Positions 34,480 through 39,403 of a stretch of DNA of 39,681 nucleotides are shown one piece after another; within the stretch, counting starts at the first letter, position 1; every line of letters starts with the position of its first letter. The stretch lies in assembly GCF_003334815.1 (NCBI RefSeq), contig NZ_QOWO01000035.1. The stretch is one strand, 5' to 3'. The stretch is from Escherichia coli (GTDB lineage: Bacteria; Pseudomonadota; Gammaproteobacteria; Enterobacterales; Enterobacteriaceae). The notes under the pieces were generated by a model. That model saw nothing but the letters and a program-made list of their open reading frames with translations. It did not search any database and was not told the origin of the DNA. The position numbers and the translations under genes are program-made.

Positions 34480-35547
34480 ATGGATAAGAGTAAGCGCCAT
34501 CTGGCGTGGTGGGTTGTCGGGTTACTCGCGGTGGCGGCTATCGTGGCGTGGTGGCTGTTGCGCCCGGCAGGTGTGCCGGAAGGCTTTGCTGTCAGTAATG
34601 GGCGCATTGAAGCGACGGAAGTGGATATTGCCAGCAAAATTGCCGGGCGTATCGACACCATTCTGGTGAAAGAAGGCCAGTTTGTTCGCGAAGGTGAAGT
34701 GCTGGCGAAGATGGATACTCGCGTGTTGCAGGAACAGCGACTGGAAGCCATCGCGCAAATCAAAGAGGCACAAAGCGCCGTTGCTGCCGCGCAGGCTTTG
34801 CTGGAGCAACGACAAAGCGAAACTCGTGCCGCACAGTCGCTGGTTAATCAACGCCAGGCAGAACTGGACTCCGTAGCAAAACGTCATACGCGTTCCCGTT
34901 CACTGGCCCAACGAGGGGCTATTTCTGCGCAACAGCTGGATGACGATCGCGCCGCCGCTGAGAGCGCCCGAGCTGCGCTGGAATCGGCGAAAGCTCAGGT
35001 ATCGGCTTCTAAAGCGGCTATAGAAGCGGCACGCACCAATATCATTCAGGCGCAAACCCGCGTCGAAGCGGCACAAGCCACTGAACGGCGCATTGCCGCA
35101 GATATCGATGACAGCGAACTGAAAGCCCCGCGTGACGGACGCGTGCAGTATCGGGTTGCCGAGCCAGGCGAAGTGCTGGCGGCAGGCGGTCGGGTGCTGA
35201 ATATGGTCGATCTCAGCGACGTCTATATGACTTTCTTCCTGCCAACCGAACAGGCGGGCACGCTGAAACTGGGCGGTGAAGCCCGGCTGATCCTCGATGC
35301 CGCGCCAGATCTGCGTATTCCTGCAACCATCAGTTTTGTCGCCAGTGTCGCCCAGTTCACGCCAAAAACCGTCGAAACCAGCGATGAACGGCTGAAACTG
35401 ATGTTCCGCGTCAAAGCGCGTATCCCACCGGAATTACTCCAGCAGCATCTGGAATATGTCAAAACCGGTTTGCCGGGCGTAGCGTGGGTGCGGGTGAATG
35501 AAGAACTTCCGTGGCCTGACGACCTCGTGGTGAGGTTGCCGCAATGA
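34480..35547 (+). CDS. yhiI: HlyD-family membrane-fusion protein YhiI
   Basis: 355-aa ORF; N-terminal TM anchor, long Ala/Gln-rich coiled coil; overlaps the rbbA start by 4 nt (ATGA). Confidence 0.95.
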
Positions 35548-38279
35548 CGCATCTGGAACTGGTTCCCGTCCCGCCTGTCGCGCAACTGGCGGGCGTGAGC
35601 CAGCATTATGGAAAAACCGTTGCGCTGAACAATATCACTCTCGATATTCCGGCCCGCTGTATGGTCGGGCTGATTGGCCCGGACGGCGTCGGGAAGTCGA
35701 GCTTGTTGTCGTTGATTTCCGGTGCCCGCGTCATTGAACAGGGCAATGTGATGGTGCTGGGCGGCGATATGCGCGACCCGAAGCATCGCCGCGACGTCTG
35801 CCCGCGCATCGCCTGGATGCCGCAGGGGCTGGGCAAAAACCTCTACCACACCTTGTCGGTGTATGAAAACGTCGATTTTTTCGCTCGCCTGTTCGGTCAC
35901 GACAAAGCGGAGCGGGAAGTGCGAATCAATGAGCTGCTGACCAGCACCGGGTTAGCACCGTTTCGCGATCGTCCGGCAGGGAAACTCTCCGGCGGGATGA
36001 AGCAAAAACTTGGGCTGTGCTGCGCGTTAATCCACGACCCGGAACTGTTGATCCTTGATGAGCCAACAACGGGGGTTGACCCGCTCTCCCGCTCCCAGTT
36101 CTGGGATCTGATCGACAGTATTCGCCAGCGGCAGAGCAATATGAGCGTGCTGGTCGCCACCGCCTATATGGAAGAGGCCGAACGCTTCGACTGGCTGGTA
36201 GCGATGAATGCCGGAGAAGTGCTGGCAACTGGCAGCGCCGAAGAGCTACGGCAGCAAACGCAAAGCGCTACGCTGGAAGAAGCATTTATAAATCTGTTAC
36301 CGCAAGCGCAACGCCAGGCGCATCAGGCGGTAGTGATCCCACCGTATCAACCTGAAAACGCAGAGATTGCCATCGAAGCGCGCGATCTGACCATGCGTTT
36401 TGGTTCCTTCGTTGCCGTTGATCACGTTAATTTCCGCATTCCACGCGGGGAGATTTTTGGTTTTCTTGGTTCGAACGGCTGCGGTAAATCCACCACCATG
36501 AAAATGCTCACCGGACTGCTGCCCGCCAGCGAAGGTGAGGCGTGGCTGTTCGGGCAACCGGTTGATCCAAAAGATATCGATACCCGCCGTCGGGTGGGCT
36601 ATATGTCGCAGGCGTTTTCGCTCTATAACGAACTCACCGTGCGGCAAAACCTTGAGTTACATGCCCGTTTGTTTCACATCCCGGAAGCGGAAATTCCCGC
36701 AAGAGTGGCTGAAATGAGCGAGCGTTTTAAGCTCAACGACGTTGAAGATATTCTGCCGGAGTCATTGCCGCTCGGCATTCGCCAGCGGCTTTCGCTGGCG
36801 GTGGCGGTGATTCATCGCCCGGAGATGTTAATCCTCGATGAGCCTACTTCTGGTGTCGATCCGGTGGCGAGGGATATGTTCTGGCAGTTGATGGTCGATC
36901 TCTCGCGCCAGGACAAAGTGACTATCTTCATCTCCACCCACTTTATGAACGAAGCGGAACGTTGCGACCGCATCTCACTGATGCACGCCGGAAAAGTGCT
37001 TGCCAGCGGTACACCGCAGGAACTGGTTGAGAAACGCGGAGCCGCCAGTCTGGAAGAGGCATTTATCGCCTATTTGCAGGAAGCGGCAGGGCAGAGCAAC
37101 GAAGCCGAAGCGCCGCCCGTGGTACACGACACCACCCACGCGCCGCGTCAGGGATTTAGCCTGCGCCGTCTGTTTAGCTACAGCCGCCGCGAAGCGCTGG
37201 AACTGCGACGCGATCCAGTACGTTCGACGCTGGCGCTGATGGGAACGGTGATCCTGATGCTGATAATGGGTTACGGCATCAGTATGGATGTGGAAAACCT
37301 GCGCTTTGCGGTGCTCGACCGCGACCAGACCGTCAGTAGCCAGGCGTGGACACTCAACCTCTCCGGTTCCCGTTACTTTATCGAACAGCCGCCGCTCACC
37401 AGTTATGACGAGCTTGATCGTCGGATGCGTGCGGGCGATATCACGGTGGCGATTGAGATCCCGCCCAATTTCGGGCGCGATATCGCGCGTGGTACGCCTG
37501 TGGAACTCGGCGTCTGGATCGACGGAGCGATGCCGAGCCGTGCTGAAACGGTAAAAGGTTACGTGCAGGCCATGCACCAGAGCTGGTTACAGGATGTGGC
37601 GAGCCGACAATCGACACCCGCCAGCCAAAGCGGGCTGATGAATATTGAGACGCGCTATCGCTATAACCCGGACGTAAAAAGCCTGCCAGCGATTGTTCCG
37701 GCGGTGATCCCGCTTCTGCTGATGATGATCCCGTCAATGCTAAGCGCCCTTAGCGTGGTGCGGGAAAAAGAGCTTGGGTCGATTATCAACCTTTACGTGA
37801 CCCCCACCACGCGTAGTGAATTTTTGCTTGGTAAACAGTTGCCATACATCGCGCTGGGGATGCTGAACTTTTTCCTGCTCTGCGGCCTGTCGGTGTTTGT
37901 GTTTGGCGTACCGCATAAAGGCAGTTTCCTGACGCTCACCCTGGCGGCGCTGCTGTATATCATCATTGCCACCGGAATGGGGCTGCTGATCTCCACCTTT
38001 ATGAAAAGCCAGATTGCCGCCATTTTCGGAACGGCGATTATCACGTTGATCCCGGCGACACAGTTTTCCGGGATGATCGATCCGGTAGCTTCGCTGGAAG
38101 GGCCTGGACGTTGGATCGGCGAGGTTTACCCGACCAGTCATTTTCTGACTATCGCCCGCGGGACGTTCTCGAAAGCGCTGGATCTGACTGATTTGTGGCA
38201 ACTTTTTATCCCGTTGCTGATAGCCATCCCGCTGGTGATGGGCTTAAGTATCCTGCTGCTGAAAAAACAGGAGGGATGA
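35544..38279 (+). CDS. rbbA: Ribosome-associated ATPase RbbA (fused tandem ABC ATPase plus ABC-2 permease domain)
   Basis: 911-aa ORF; two Walker A motifs ([18 protein letters not shown]), two ABC signature LSGG-type motifs, C-terminal multi-TM domain. Confidence 0.96.
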
Positions 38280-39403
38280 TGCGCCATTTACGCAATATTT
38301 TTAATCTGGGTATCAAAGAGTTGCGCAGTCTGCTCGGTGATAAAGCGATGCTGACGCTGATTGTCTTCTCGTTTACGGTGTCGGTGTATTCGTCAGCGAC
38401 CGTTACGCCAGGATCGTTGAACCTCGCGCCGATCGCCATTGCCGATATGGATCAATCGCAGTTATCGAACCGGATCGTTAACAGCTTCTATCGTCCGTGG
38501 TTTTTGCCACCGGAGATGATCACCGCCGATGAGATGGATGCCGGACTGGACGCCGGACGCTATACCTTCGCGATAAATATTCCGCCTAATTTTCAGCGTG
38601 ATGTCCTCGCCGGACGCCAGCCGGATATTCAGGTGAACGTCGATGCCACGCGCATGAGCCAGGCATTTACCGGCAATGGGTATATCCAGAATATTATCAA
38701 CGGTGAAGTGAACAGCTTTGTCGCGCGCTACCGTGATAACAGCGAACCGTTGGTATCGCTGGAAACCCGGATGCGCTTTAACCCGAACCTCGATCCCGCG
38801 TGGTTTGGCGGGGTGATGGCGATCATCAACAACATTACCATGCTGGCGATTGTATTGACCGGATCGGCGCTGATCCGCGAGCGTGAACACGGCACGGTGG
38901 AACACTTACTGGTGATGCCGATAACGCCGTTTGAGATCATGATGGCGAAGATCTGGTCGATGGGGCTGGTGGTGCTGGTGGTATCGGGATTATCGCTGGT
39001 GCTGATGGTGAAAGGTGTACTGGGCGTACCGATTGAAGGCTCGATCCCGCTGTTTATGCTGGGCGTGGCGCTCAGTCTGTTTGCCACCACGTCAATCGGC
39101 ATTTTTATGGGGACGATAGCGCGTTCAATGCCGCAACTGGGGCTGCTGGTGATTCTGGTGCTGCTGCCGCTGCAAATGCTTTCCGGTGGTTCCACGCCGC
39201 GCGAAAGTATGCCGCAGATGGTGCAGGACATTATGCTGACCATGCCGACGACACACTTTGTTAGCCTCGCGCAGGCCATCCTCTACCGGGGTGCCGGATT
39301 CGAAATCGTCTGGCCGCAGTTTCTGACGCTGATGGCAATTGGCGGCGCATTTTTCACCATTGCGCTGCTGCGATTCAGGAAGACGATTGGGACAATGGCG
39401 TAA
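38279..39403 (+). CDS. yhhJ: ABC-2 family inner-membrane permease YhhJ
   Basis: Tandem ATG ATG overlapping the rbbA stop; I chose the second (374 aa, [18 protein letters not shown]…) because RBS aggagg is better spaced; the first ATG (38276) is possible. Confidence 0.88.
   Translation: MRHLRNIFNLGIKELRSLLGDKAMLTLIVFSFTVSVYSSATVTPGSLNLAPIAIADMDQSQLSNRIVNSFYRPWFLPPEMITADEMDAGLDAGRYTFAINIPPNFQRDVLAGRQPDIQVNVDATRMSQAFTGNGYIQNIINGEVNSFVARYRDNSEPLVSLETRMRFNPNLDPAWFGGVMAIINNITMLAIVLTGSALIREREHGTVEHLLVMPITPFEIMMAKIWSMGLVVLVVSGLSLVLMVKGVLGVPIEGSIPLFMLGVALSLFATTSIGIFMGTIARSMPQLGLLVILVLLPLQMLSGGSTPRESMPQMVQDIMLTMPTTHFVSLAQAILYRGAGFEIVWPQFLTLMAIGGAFFTIALLRFRKTIGTMA

What the first reader, a model, noticed from the sequence alone, without database searches (positions are those of the whole stretch)
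34480..39403. yhiI-rbbA-yhhJ: start/stop-overlapping three-gene ABC-like module
yhiI and rbbA overlap by ATGA; rbbA and yhhJ overlap at TGATG. RbbA fuses two ATPase domains to an ABC-2 permease domain, and YhhJ is a second ABC-2 permease. The architecture resembles an adaptor-dependent export system, yet RbbA is reported to be ribosome-associated; the cargo, if any, is not established as far as I know.
Basis: partly seen in the sequence, partly recalled or inferred. Interest (0 to 1): 0.35.

Follow-up and report, generated by a model that had tools for sequence, protein, structure and literature searches.

The report
Known E. coli yhiI-rbbA-yhhJ exporter operon
This is the already annotated E. 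coli yhiI-rbbA-yhhJ operon, which by sequence, predicted fold and gene neighbourhood is an envelope-spanning ABC export pump of unknown cargo rather than a ribosome factor, and whose overlapping gene junctions are real and conserved.

Summary
yhiI (34480-35547), rbbA (35544-38279) and yhhJ (38279-39403) overlap by ATGA and TGATG, as annotated in RefSeq, and the module is present in 5414 of 5426 complete E. coli genomes.

The gene order is kept in all assessable loci among 80 drawn from several bacterial phyla. The (A/G)TGA overlap is kept in at least 59 of 80 loci. The rbbA/yhhJ gap is -4 to +3 nt in 70 of 78.

YhiI is an EmrA/MacA-like periplasmic adaptor with the R-x3-L-x6-S tip motif. RbbA (two ATPase domains plus an ABC-2 permease domain) and YhhJ together make one transporter. 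It has one consensus and one invariantly degenerate ATP site. It is a paralogue of YbhGFSR.

In 22 loci a NodT-type outer-membrane channel gene sits directly upstream. RbbA is not an ABC-F translation factor. The ribosome data come from a truncated protein in vitro, and the main in vivo paper was retracted in 2025.

This comprises one sigma-70 promoter, a 327-nt leader holding the translated small ORF yhiY, and Rho-dependent premature termination.

The cargo remains unknown. The module is already known and of modest interest.

The parts
34119..34146 (+). Sigma-70 promoter TAGACA-16-TACTAT with TG before the -10 hexamer. It is the only promoter-like site in 33900-39681.
   Evidence: Consensus scan. 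The identical hexamers are listed as the constitutive RpoD promoter of yhiI-rbbA-yhhJ in PMC3946193. The homologous TAGACA...TAGTAT is visible in E. albertii and Citrobacter.
34153..34479 (+). 5' leader of about 327 nt. The start is inferred from a published cloning primer that begins 7 nt after the -10 hexamer.
   Evidence: Primer JW10219 of Adams et al. begins at 34153. The start site is inferred, not measured here.
34304..34417 (+). yhiY, a 37-codon upstream ORF (MMTTLLPVFTKPSPLALNALRAGRICRFLLIPDGRIR).
   Evidence: RefSeq annotation. The start was mapped by ribosome profiling (10.1101/511675). The protein is seen by mass spectrometry at about 1000-3000 copies per cell (PMC12529367). yhiY-yhiI is listed as a candidate uORF regulator.
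34283..34399 (+). The only C-rich, G-poor (rut-like) stretch of the leader. It lies inside yhiY.
   Evidence: Sliding 78-nt C/G ratio of 1.5-1.75 here, against 0.4-1.1 in the rest of the leader. Rho dependence of the downstream 3' end comes from Adams et al. supplementary data.
34269..34451 (+). Predicted structured leader RNA. A long-range helix pairs 34269-34284 with 34436-34451. A second helix pairs 34290-34296 with 34367-34373 and covers the yhiY Shine-Dalgarno. A hairpin pairs 34384-34392 with 34399-34407.
   Evidence: RNAalifold on 7 sequences. Pair counts: 96.6% of cells paired, 5 pairs with compensatory changes, 0 of 500 shuffles reach the covariation score, and slid controls give 35-45% paired. 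Coordinates. This is suggestive only, because there are three clades and the structure was derived from the same alignment. No Rfam family matches.
34411..34431 (+). Conserved 9-bp hairpin (CCGCUGAAC GUC GUUCGGCGG) that holds the yhiY stop codon (34415-34417). Published Term-seq 3' ends fall at 34415 and 34437.
   Evidence: Two of the 9 pairs show compensatory changes. The 3' ends lie at -65 and -43 from the yhiI ATG, and the -43 end is flagged Rho-dependent and 'uORF'. Mapping.
34480..35547 (+). yhiI, a periplasmic adaptor of 355 aa. The model has a TM anchor at residues 3-26, lipoyl and beta-barrel domains, and an alpha-hairpin with helices 81-144 and 150-211 (nt 34720-35112).
   Evidence: Pfam and NCBIfam. 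AlphaFold model with pLDDT 86. Best PDB fold matches are EmrA in EmrAB-TolC (E 4e-22), then MacA.
34891..34926 (+). Hairpin-tip motif R138-x3-L142-x6-S149, the 'RLS' motif of TolC-docking adaptors.
   Evidence: R and L are present in 75 of 75 homologues and S in 56 of 75. YbhG carries the motif at residue 133. The motif's role in TolC binding is from my own knowledge of the MacA, AcrA and HlyD literature.
35544..35547 (+). ATGA, where the rbbA start overlaps the yhiI stop.
   Evidence: Sequence. (A/G)TGA is conserved in at least 59 of 80 loci.
35544..38279 (+). rbbA, 911 aa. NBD1 is roughly residues 12-250 (nt 35577-36293). NBD2 is roughly residues 276-515 (nt 36369-37088). A disordered linker spans 518-535. 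The ABC-2 membrane domain is roughly residues 540-908 (nt 37161-38267), with 6 TM helices and a periplasmic domain of about 140 aa between TM1 and TM2.
   Evidence: Pfam. NCBIfam NF033858 at 1597 bits. Hydropathy. AlphaFold model with pLDDT 82. The top fold match is the ABCH-9C lipid exporter, followed by ABCA3/7/4.
36165..36167 (+). Codon of Tyr208, which replaces the H-loop histidine of NBD1. Together with the NBD2 signature LPLG (residues 408-411, nt 36765-36776) it makes ATP site 1 degenerate.
   Evidence: Motif scan. Tyr is present in 81 of 81 sequences, P409 in 81 of 81 and L410 in 79 of 81. The partner motifs LSGG (148-151) and His466 are invariant. YbhF shows the same pattern.
38269..38274 (+). 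AGGAGG Shine-Dalgarno for yhhJ, embedded in the last rbbA codons (K-Q-E-G).
   Evidence: Sequence. The A(A/G)CAGG(A/C)G block is conserved upstream of the yhhJ start across the 80 loci.
38277..38281 (+). TGATG, where the rbbA stop and the yhhJ start share one base.
   Evidence: Sequence, RefSeq and the junction survey.
38279..39403 (+). yhhJ, the second ABC-2 permease (374 aa). It has 6 TM helices and a periplasmic domain of about 145 aa between TM1 and TM2.
   Evidence: Pfam and hydropathy. It is 28% identical to the RbbA membrane domain and 24% identical to YbhR.
39414..39446 (+). 10-bp perfect hairpin followed by U-rich sequence, 10 nt after the yhhJ stop. It is a possible operon terminator.
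   Evidence: Folded at -33 kcal/mol with z = -5.6. It was missed by the consensus scan because of its 13-nt loop. Function is inferred.

Best explanation
The region encodes one transcription unit: a promoter, a leader containing yhiY, then yhiI, rbbA and yhhJ. It builds an envelope-spanning ABC exporter of the ABC-2 (type V) kind.

RbbA supplies both ATPase domains and one membrane domain, and YhhJ supplies the second membrane domain. One RbbA plus one YhhJ therefore form a complete, intrinsically asymmetric transporter. It has one catalytic ATP site, made of the NBD2 Walker A, Walker B and H-loop histidine plus the NBD1 LSGG signature. It has one degenerate, probably regulatory, site made of NBD1 with an H-loop tyrosine plus the NBD2 LPLG signature.

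YhiI is a membrane-anchored, EmrA-like adaptor with a hairpin of roughly 95 A. It is expected to form a ring on the two periplasmic domains and to dock tip-to-tip with an outer-membrane channel. In E. coli that channel would be TolC. In many other bacteria a NodT-family channel is encoded immediately upstream.

The start/stop overlaps, and the Shine-Dalgarno embedded in the last rbbA codons, couple translation so that the partners are made together.

Expression from a constitutive sigma-70 promoter is held down by Rho-dependent premature termination in a structured 327-nt leader that contains the translated small ORF yhiY.

What is shown here: the gene anatomy, the domain families, the conservation and the outer-membrane factor linkage. 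What is shown in the literature: the promoter, yhiY translation, Rho dependence and membrane localisation. What is inferred: complex assembly, use of TolC, the division of labour between the ATP sites, translational coupling and the direction of transport. The cargo is unknown. The unusually high conservation (RbbA 65-72% identical from E. coli to alpha-, beta- and deltaproteobacteria) and lipid-exporter relatives favour an endogenous, possibly lipophilic, substrate over a drug.
For: Paralogy with ybhGFSR, in the same gene order: YhiI/YbhG 30%, RbbA NBDs/YbhF 41%, RbbA membrane domain/YbhS 32%, YhhJ/YbhR 24%.

The three-gene order is kept in all assessable loci of 80 from Gamma-, Beta-, Alpha- and Deltaproteobacteria, Verrucomicrobia and Phycisphaerales.

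A NodT outer-membrane factor gene lies directly upstream on the same strand in 22 loci, often with a 4-nt overlap. It scores 346 bits on TIGR01845 against a cutoff of 210.

The YhiI model is EmrA/MacA-like, and the RLS tip motif is conserved.

The asymmetric ATP sites are invariant in 81 of 81 sequences.

The RbbA model resembles ABCH and ABCA exporters, and sequence relatives are ABCA3/4/1/7, ABCH and Rv1218c.

RbbA-mCherry is spread over the membrane (PMC6788730).

There is a single promoter. Rho-dependent 3' ends and the uORF are.
Against: No transport substrate, complex or TolC dependence has been demonstrated for this system in anything I could read.

Overexpression of 'yhiHJ' gave only small effects in one export screen (PMC11026601).

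Truncated RbbA does alter in vitro translation by 1.2- to 2.1-fold (PMC12096078), so a ribosome contact is not excluded.

E. coli and the other Enterobacterales loci have no linked outer-membrane factor gene, so use of TolC is an extrapolation.

The monomer AlphaFold models say nothing about assembly.
Confidence: 0.75

Rival explanations
1. RbbA is what its name says: a ribosome-bound ATPase that promotes release of E-site tRNA during elongation. On this view its membrane domain and neighbours are incidental or serve to tether ribosomes to the membrane.
For: The NCBI family name is 'ribosome-associated ATPase/putative transporter RbbA'. Truncated RbbA changes yields in a reconstituted translation system by 0.6- to 2.1-fold, and competes with EttA and Uup (PMC12096078). 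Tandem-NBD translation factors such as EttA, Uup and PoxtA appear among the fold matches.
Against: All ribosome work I could read used RbbA lacking its membrane domain, because the full-length protein is unstable.

The paper with in vivo interaction and genetic data was retracted in June 2025 for image concerns.

RbbA fails the defining features of ABC-F factors. It has a 6-TM domain. It has no PF12848 linker domain, whereas EttA has one at residues 230-305. It is only 25% identical to EttA with 20% gaps, against 41% to YbhF.

It is membrane-localised. It is always encoded between an adaptor and a permease, and often behind an outer-membrane channel gene. Any tandem-NBD protein matches EttA at the fold level.
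Confidence: 0.08
2. The complex does not carry cargo across the inner membrane. Like MacB or LolCDE, it would use ATP-driven movements of its two large periplasmic domains to push a periplasmic or outer-leaflet substrate into the YhiI-TolC duct. This is mechanotransmission rather than alternating access.
For: RbbA and YhhJ each have a periplasmic domain of about 140 aa between TM1 and TM2. The adaptor resembles MacA as well as EmrA. The closest solved relatives, ABCA and ABCH, extract lipids from the membrane rather than moving solutes through a central pore. A review files the paralogue YbhFSR beside MacB (PMC8277102).
Against: The membrane domains are Pfam ABC2_membrane_3 and ABC2_membrane, not the FtsX/MacB_PCD type, so the MacB fold is not present. 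Nothing here distinguishes the two transport modes.
Confidence: 0.2
3. The overlaps are ordinary gene packing with no functional meaning, and the three genes act independently.
For: Four- and one-base overlaps are common in bacterial operons (general knowledge). The exact form of the rbbA/yhhJ junction varies between species, from -4 to +3 nt.
Against: The gene order is conserved in all assessable loci, and (A/G)TGA is kept in at least 59 of 80 loci across phyla. A Shine-Dalgarno for yhhJ is conserved inside the last rbbA codons. RbbA has only one membrane domain, so it needs a partner such as YhhJ to form a transporter. No internal promoter is predicted or reported.
Confidence: 0.03

Closest known systems
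YbhGFSR of E. coli (cecR-ybhG-ybhF-ybhS-ybhR), a putative ABC-2 tripartite efflux system
   Same: The gene order is the same: adaptor, double-ATPase, permease, permease. The junctions are tightly packed or overlapping, with 8-nt overlaps at ybhG/ybhF and ybhF/ybhS. Pairwise identity is 24-41% for every component. The asymmetric ATP sites are the same, with NBD1 H-loop Tyr and NBD2 LPLG. The adaptor carries the same RLS tip motif.
   Different: In RbbA the double ATPase is fused to the first permease. There is no adjacent TetR regulator like CecR; instead there is a long leader with yhiY and Rho attenuation. YbhFSR has reported substrates, namely tetracyclines, cefoperazone and Na+/Li+ (PMC7190983 abstract). 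YhiI-RbbA-YhhJ has none.
EmrAB-TolC and MacAB-TolC tripartite pumps (adaptors EmrA and MacA)
   Same: The YhiI model matches EmrA in the EmrAB-TolC complex best (E 4e-22), then MacA. It has an N-terminal TM anchor, lipoyl and beta-barrel domains, a long hairpin and the RLS tip motif.
   Different: The inner-membrane partner is an ABC-2 heterodimer, not an MFS (EmrB) or FtsX-type ABC (MacB) transporter. Sequence identity to EmrA and MacA is below 20%.
Type V (ABC-2) exporters: eukaryotic ABCA and ABCH lipid exporters, DrrAB, Rv1217c-Rv1218c
   Same: The NBDs are closest in sequence to ABCA3/4/1/7, ABCH and Rv1218c. The top fold match is ABCH-9C bound to ceramide. The membrane domains have 6 TM helices with a large extracytoplasmic domain after TM1.
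   Different: The domain order NBD-NBD-TMD plus a separate TMD is unlike ABCA (TMD-NBD-TMD-NBD) or ABCH (NBD-TMD homodimer). The system works with a periplasmic adaptor and an outer-membrane channel.
ABC-F translation factors (EttA, Uup, YbiT, YheS)
   Same: Both have two tandem ABC ATPase domains in one chain. Truncated RbbA has in vitro effects on translation.
   Different: RbbA has a membrane domain, no PF12848 linker and only 25% identity with many gaps to EttA. Its operon partners are envelope proteins.
mdtU-mdtJI type uORF/Rho attenuators
   Same: A translated small ORF lies in the leader of an exporter operon. A Rho-dependent 3' end lies just downstream of it. A rut-like C-rich tract lies inside the uORF.
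   Different: No inducer is known, and YhiY accumulates as a stable small protein. Conservation of its C-terminal codons may instead reflect an RNA hairpin. The element is restricted to Escherichia, Citrobacter and Pseudocitrobacter.

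Membership tests
Periplasmic adaptor proteins of tripartite pumps (HlyD/EmrA/MacA family), tested for YhiI | Inner-membrane anchor (TM helix or lipid) followed by a periplasmic body | tested here: met
   A single hydrophobic segment at residues 8-26. The model has a helix at 3-26.
Periplasmic adaptor proteins of tripartite pumps (HlyD/EmrA/MacA family), tested for YhiI | Lipoyl and beta-barrel domains interrupted by a coiled-coil alpha-hairpin | tested here: met
   Pfam Biotin_lipoyl_2, HlyD_D23 and HlyD_3. TIGR01730 scores 118 bits against a cutoff of 95. The model has helices 81-144 and 150-211 flanked by beta domains. Foldseek matches EmrA, MacA, AcrA and MexA.
Periplasmic adaptor proteins of tripartite pumps (HlyD/EmrA/MacA family), tested for YhiI | R-x3-L-x6-S motif at the hairpin tip that contacts the outer-membrane channel | tested here: met
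   R138 and L142 are present in 75 of 75 homologues and S149 in 56 of 75. The motif spans the modelled tip at residues 144-150.
Periplasmic adaptor proteins of tripartite pumps (HlyD/EmrA/MacA family), tested for YhiI | Physical bridging of an inner-membrane transporter to TolC or another outer-membrane factor | not testable with these tools
   There is only a genomic proxy: a NodT-family outer-membrane factor gene immediately upstream in 22 related loci.
ABC-2 (type V) ABC exporters, tested for RbbA plus YhhJ | ABC ATPase domains with Walker A, Q-loop, signature, Walker B and H-loop | tested here: met
   There are two ABC_tran domains. All motifs are present, with one site degenerate through Tyr208 and LPLG.
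ABC-2 (type V) ABC exporters, tested for RbbA plus YhhJ | Two ABC-2 type membrane domains of 6 TM helices each | tested here: met
   PF12698 and PF01061 match the RbbA C-terminus and YhhJ. Each has 6 hydrophobic segments.
ABC-2 (type V) ABC exporters, tested for RbbA plus YhhJ | ATP-dependent export of a substrate | not testable with these tools
   No substrate is reported in the literature searched.
YbhGFSR-type four-part systems | Adaptor, tandem-NBD ATPase and two different ABC-2 permeases encoded in that order, each homologous to its counterpart | tested here: met
   BLASTP gives 24-41% identity with E-values of 1e-22 to 1e-73, and the order is the same. The difference is that the ATPase is fused to the first permease.
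YbhGFSR-type four-part systems | Adjacent TetR-family regulator (CecR) | tested here: not met
   The upstream genes are yhiY and yhiJ. Among related loci only an occasional TetR-like ORF is found, for example in L039.
ABC-F translation factors | Soluble protein with no membrane domain | tested here: not met
   There is a 6-TM ABC-2 domain at residues 540-908. The protein is membrane-localised in PMC6788730.
ABC-F translation factors | Inter-NBD linker of about 80 aa (P-site tRNA interaction motif, Pfam PF12848) | tested here: not met
   RbbA has no PF12848 hit. The positive control EttA has one at residues 230-305. In the alignment, EttA needs large insertions relative to RbbA.
ABC-F translation factors | Binding to the ribosomal E site in vivo | not testable with these tools
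   Only in vitro data with truncated protein exist. The in vivo paper was retracted.
MacB/FtsX (type VII) ABC transporters | FtsX-type 4-TM membrane domain with a MacB periplasmic core domain | tested here: not met
   Pfam gives ABC2_membrane families only.
uORF-dependent Rho attenuators (mdtU-mdtJI type) | Translated uORF in the leader, with a Rho-dependent 3' end just downstream | tested here: inconclusive
   Both features are reported in the literature. They map consistently onto the sequence: a rut-like tract inside yhiY, and a hairpin at the stop codon next to the 3' ends. Whether termination depends on yhiY translation was not tested.

The most novel reading that the evidence does not exclude
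YhiI-RbbA-YhhJ would be a housekeeping exporter dependent on TolC or a NodT channel, conserved across several Gram-negative phyla. Its cargo would be a still-unidentified endogenous envelope molecule, lipid-like as for its ABCA and ABCH relatives.

In Escherichia and close relatives, the exporter would be switched on through a previously undescribed structured leader. In that leader, ribosome occupancy or stalling on the yhiY small ORF would control Rho access.

The ribosome-factor activity that gave RbbA its name would be an in vitro property of the isolated tandem ATPase domains, with no physiological role.
Probability: 0.2. Interest if true: 0.55.

Novelty: already known. Interest (0 to 1): 0.3.

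Why it matters
RbbA is still named and cited as a ribosome-bound elongation ATPase, and it was used as one in a 2025 translation-engineering study. Yet every sequence-level test here places it in a conserved envelope export machine, and the only in vivo ribosome paper has been retracted.

A pump whose core is 65-72% identical from E. coli to Rhizobium, Nitrosomonas and deltaproteobacteria is unlikely to be a niche drug pump. Finding its cargo would fill a gap in the inventory of E. coli TolC-dependent systems.

The analysis makes the question more testable in four ways:
- It says which ATP site should be catalytic.
- It says which adaptor residues should dock the channel.
- It says that expression is normally throttled by a leader that can be removed.
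- It points to non-enteric species in which the outer-membrane partner is encoded in the operon.

None of this changes the fact that the module itself is already annotated and its operon structure already recorded.

Tried and rejected
- Rfam scan of 33900-39681 at E <= 1 found nothing.
- The riboswitch-prediction paper that mentions these genes refers to a site about 6.6 kb away, so it is irrelevant.
- I looked for a conserved cargo-related neighbour by clustering 803 flanking ORFs from 80 loci. Only the NodT outer-membrane factor is recurrent. ABC ATPases, TonB receptors, RND pumps and LysR or TetR regulators are scattered.
- P-type cation ATPase genes directly flank the module on the same strand in four loci. 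They are of different subtypes (P2-type and CopA), so they give no firm hint.
- I considered programmed -1 frameshifting, because the yhhJ frame is open from 38195, an A6 run lies at 38261-38266, and RbbA-YhhJ fusion proteins of 1283-1286 aa exist in databases. I rejected it because the fusions arise from frameshifts at several different positions, and some destroy TM6.
- The FlhDC SELEX peak near yhiI, the paraquat-tolerance deletion, the microcin C GWAS SNPs and the Salmonella ciprofloxacin co-expression module all mention these genes, but none gives causal evidence.
- The first homologue search was saturated by E. coli sequences and gave no diversity.
- The whole-chain fold search of RbbA is dominated by the ATPase domains and says little about the periplasmic domain.
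- The cap on reading papers was reached, so the YddA paper and several phenotype papers were not read.

Full report
**What is there.** The window is E. coli chromosome, 100% identical over 34100-39681 to NZ_CP025903.1. Three long ORFs lie on the + strand at 34480-35547, 35544-38279 and, in the yhhJ frame, up to 39403.

Reading the sequence shows ATGA at 35544-35547 and TGATG at 38277-38281. RefSeq annotates exactly yhiI, rbbA and yhhJ (38279-39403) with these overlaps.

The module is present at 80% coverage or more in 5414 of 5426 complete E. coli genomes.

**Domain content.** RbbA has two ABC_tran domains (residues 28-176 and 293-436) and an ABC2_membrane_3 domain (569-903). It hits the curated RbbA model at 1597 bits. 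YhhJ is an ABC2_membrane_3 protein. YhiI carries the HlyD, Biotin_lipoyl_2 and HlyD_D23 domains of periplasmic adaptors and passes the RND_mfp subfamily cutoff.

Hydropathy gives one N-terminal TM segment in YhiI. It gives six TM segments each in the RbbA C-terminus and in YhhJ, with roughly 140 residues between TM1 and TM2 that must be periplasmic. None of the three has a solved structure. The nearest solved sequences are ABCA3/4/1/7, an insect ABCH, Rv1218c and NosF for the ATPase, and EmrA and MacA for YhiI.

**A paralogue in the same genome.** The ybhG-ybhF-ybhS-ybhR cluster of E. coli K-12 has the same order: adaptor, double ATPase, permease, permease. Each product is homologous to its counterpart: YhiI/YbhG 30%, RbbA NBDs/YbhF 41%, RbbA membrane domain/YbhS 32% and YhhJ/YbhR 24%. 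Its junctions are also overlapped or nearly so. RbbA is thus a YbhF-YbhS fusion in architecture.

**Asymmetric ATP sites.** NBD1 has a canonical LSGG signature, but a tyrosine (Tyr208) replaces the H-loop histidine. NBD2 has the histidine (His466) but a degenerate signature, LPLG.

In an ABC dimer each ATP is held by the Walker A, Walker B and H-loop of one domain and the signature of the other. Both defects therefore fall in the same site. This leaves one consensus site (NBD2 motifs plus the NBD1 signature) and one degenerate site. The pattern is identical in YbhF and invariant in 81 of 81 RbbA homologues. That the degenerate site is regulatory rather than catalytic is an inference from other asymmetric ABC transporters.

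**Comparative genomics.** A scan of one genome per species returned 80 loci. These came from Enterobacterales, methanotrophs, Pseudomonas, Nitrosomonas, Rhizobiales, Acetobacteraceae, deltaproteobacteria, Verrucomicrobia and Phycisphaerales. RbbA is 65-72% identical to the E. coli protein even in the distant ones, YhhJ 58-70% and YhiI 52-63%. The order yhiI-rbbA-yhhJ is kept wherever the contig allows.

Clustering the flanking ORFs gave one recurrent neighbour. In 22 loci the gene immediately upstream on the same strand, often overlapping yhiI by 4 nt, is a NodT-family efflux outer-membrane lipoprotein. It scores 346 bits on TIGR01845 against a cutoff of 210. No other neighbour is consistent. 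No Enterobacterales locus has a linked channel gene, as is usual for TolC-dependent pumps in E. coli. That last point is my own knowledge.

**The junctions.** The yhiI stop overlaps the rbbA start as (A/G)TGA in at least 59 of 80 loci. The rbbA-yhhJ spacing is -4 to +3 nt in 70 of 78. The last rbbA codons, A(A/G)CAGG(A/C)G, which in E. coli contain AGGAGG at 38269-38274, are conserved in front of the yhhJ start.

This is what is expected if the downstream genes are translated by coupled reinitiation. That would suit a 1:1 RbbA-YhhJ pair. Coupling itself was not tested.

**Predicted structures.** The YhiI model (pLDDT 86) has a TM helix, beta domains and a hairpin of two helices of about 63 residues each. 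Its best PDB matches are EmrA within the EmrAB-TolC complex (E 4e-22), then MacA within MacAB-TolC. The hairpin tip carries R138-x3-L142-x6-S149. R and L are invariant in 75 homologues, and the same motif occurs in YbhG. This is the motif known from MacA, AcrA and HlyD to contact TolC (my own knowledge).

The RbbA model (pLDDT 82) shows two NBDs, a disordered linker (518-535) and a helical membrane domain with an alpha/beta periplasmic insert. Its top fold match is the ceramide-bound ABCH-9C exporter, followed by tandem-NBD ATPases and ABCA3/7/4.

**The ribosome label.** RbbA fails the defining features of ABC-F translation factors. It has a membrane domain. It has no PF12848 linker, whereas the control EttA has one. 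It is 25% identical to EttA with 20% gaps.

A 2025 study that used RbbA in a translation system states that it used the form lacking the transmembrane domain, because the full-length protein is unstable. The effects were 0.6- to 2.1-fold (PMC12096078). RbbA-mCherry is distributed over the membrane (PMC6788730).

The paper reporting in vivo ribosome and YhjD interactions (PMC3083400) was retracted by the journal in June 2025 for unresolved image concerns. Three authors dissented (PMC12169533). A ribosome contact of the isolated ATPase domains is not excluded, but nothing supports it as the physiological role.

**Regulation and the true extent of the unit.** The only promoter-like site in 33900-39681 is TAGACA-16-TACTAT at 34119-34146. 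The same hexamers are listed as the constitutive RpoD promoter of 'yhiI-rbbA-yhhJ' by genomic SELEX (PMC3946193).

The leader is long, running from about 34153 to 34479. Its start is inferred from a published cloning primer. It contains yhiY, whose start was mapped by ribosome profiling. The YhiY protein is detected at roughly 1000-3000 copies per cell.

Adams et al. report that a yhiI fusion rises more than 2-fold in a rho mutant, and they list yhiY-yhiI as a candidate uORF regulator. Their supplementary tables place 3' ends at -65 and -43 from the yhiI ATG, which is 34415 and 34437 in the window. The latter is flagged Rho-dependent. A further bicyclomycin-sensitive site lies inside yhiI.

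Several features map onto the sequence consistently:
- The only C-rich, G-poor tract of the leader lies inside yhiY.
- A conserved 9-bp hairpin at 34411-34431 encloses the yhiY stop codon, with two compensatory pairs.
- An alignment fold predicts a long-range helix, 34269-34284 with 34436-34451, that encloses the whole small ORF. It also predicts a helix over the yhiY Shine-Dalgarno.
- A 63-nt block, 34263-34325, is identical in four genera whose yhiI coding sequence is only 75-80% identical.

The support for the structure is real but thin. There are seven sequences in three clades, and the structure was derived from the same alignment.

The YhiY C-terminal codons (FLLIPDG) are conserved, but in Citrobacter they are reached from a different start and frame. 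They also form a hairpin. Peptide and RNA explanations therefore cannot be separated here. The element is absent from Kluyvera, Providencia and Proteus.

**Downstream end.** A perfect 10-bp hairpin at 39414-39446 followed by U-rich sequence lies just after yhhJ (z = -5.6). The sequence beyond the yhhJ stop differs between E. coli lineages.

**Verdict.** This is a known, annotated operon. The best-supported reading, at about 0.75, is a tripartite ABC-2 exporter. In other bacteria it is a four-gene unit that includes the outer-membrane channel. It has an intrinsically asymmetric ATPase, translationally coupled subunits and leader-based attenuation. Its cargo is unknown.

The high conservation and lipid-exporter relatives point to an endogenous, perhaps lipophilic, substrate, but that is speculation. 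The additions here are the outer-membrane factor linkage, the degenerate ATP site, the conserved junctions, the yhiY leader and the weakened status of the ribosome literature.

Noticed in passing
window 34263-34325 (and 34269-34451): A 63-nt block covering the yhiY ribosome-binding site and first codons is 100% identical in Escherichia, Citrobacter, Pseudocitrobacter and Kluyvera, although the adjacent yhiI coding sequence is only 75-80% identical. It forms the 5' strand of a predicted long-range helix that encloses yhiY. No Rfam family matches.
   Followed up: partly
window 34147-34262: Relative to E. albertii, another E. coli lineage (L003) and Citrobacter, this K-12-type sequence carries roughly 115 extra bases between the promoter and the conserved leader block. 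The multiple alignment misplaced the promoter because of it.
   Followed up: no
window 34269-34335, and L005/L006/L009 around 6700-6870: The conserved block can be read in two frames. In Citrobacter the ORF that ends in ...FLLIPDGISR starts at ATGAGTATG. In E. coli that frame is closed after 22 codons, and the peptide is reached from the ATGATG start instead.
   Followed up: partly
window 38195-38279; proteins P0001-P0010: The yhhJ reading frame is open for 84 nt upstream of its start, inside rbbA, and corresponds to the -1 frame of rbbA. About ten database entries encode 1272-1286 aa RbbA-YhhJ fusions. Their frameshifts are at different places, and some remove TM6, so they look like mutations or sequencing errors rather than programmed frameshifting.
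   Followed up: yes
L013 12031-14931, L038 4366-6843, L059 36-2759, L041 11940-14228: In four distant loci a P-type cation ATPase gene directly flanks the module on the same strand, with gaps of 46-171 nt. Three are P2-type (Ca2+-ATPase-like) and one is CopA-like. This is possibly a hint about physiology, but it is too sparse and heterogeneous to use.
   Followed up: partly
window 39404-39681: The sequence after the yhhJ stop is lineage-specific. Here it leads into the 3' end of yhhI (an ISEc1/H-repeat transposase gene on the minus strand) next to rhsB. In other E. coli lineages it leads into a DUF4049 gene or, in Citrobacter-like genomes, nikR. A REP-like GCCGGATAAGGCG motif lies at about 39478-39490.
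   Followed up: no
PMC8277102 (review), concerning the paralogue: The review places YbhFSR under the MacB/FtsX family and calls ybhF the adaptor gene. Pfam here gives ABC-2 membrane domains for the YhhJ and RbbA relatives, and ybhG is the adaptor. The classification in that passage therefore looks inaccurate.
   Followed up: partly
window 32492-34114 and upstream: Two adjacent paralogous YhiJ/YhiL-family genes of unknown function lie directly upstream of the module on the same strand. They are absent from the corresponding position in E. albertii, Citrobacter and the E. coli lineage of L003, so they are not part of the conserved unit.
   Followed up: no
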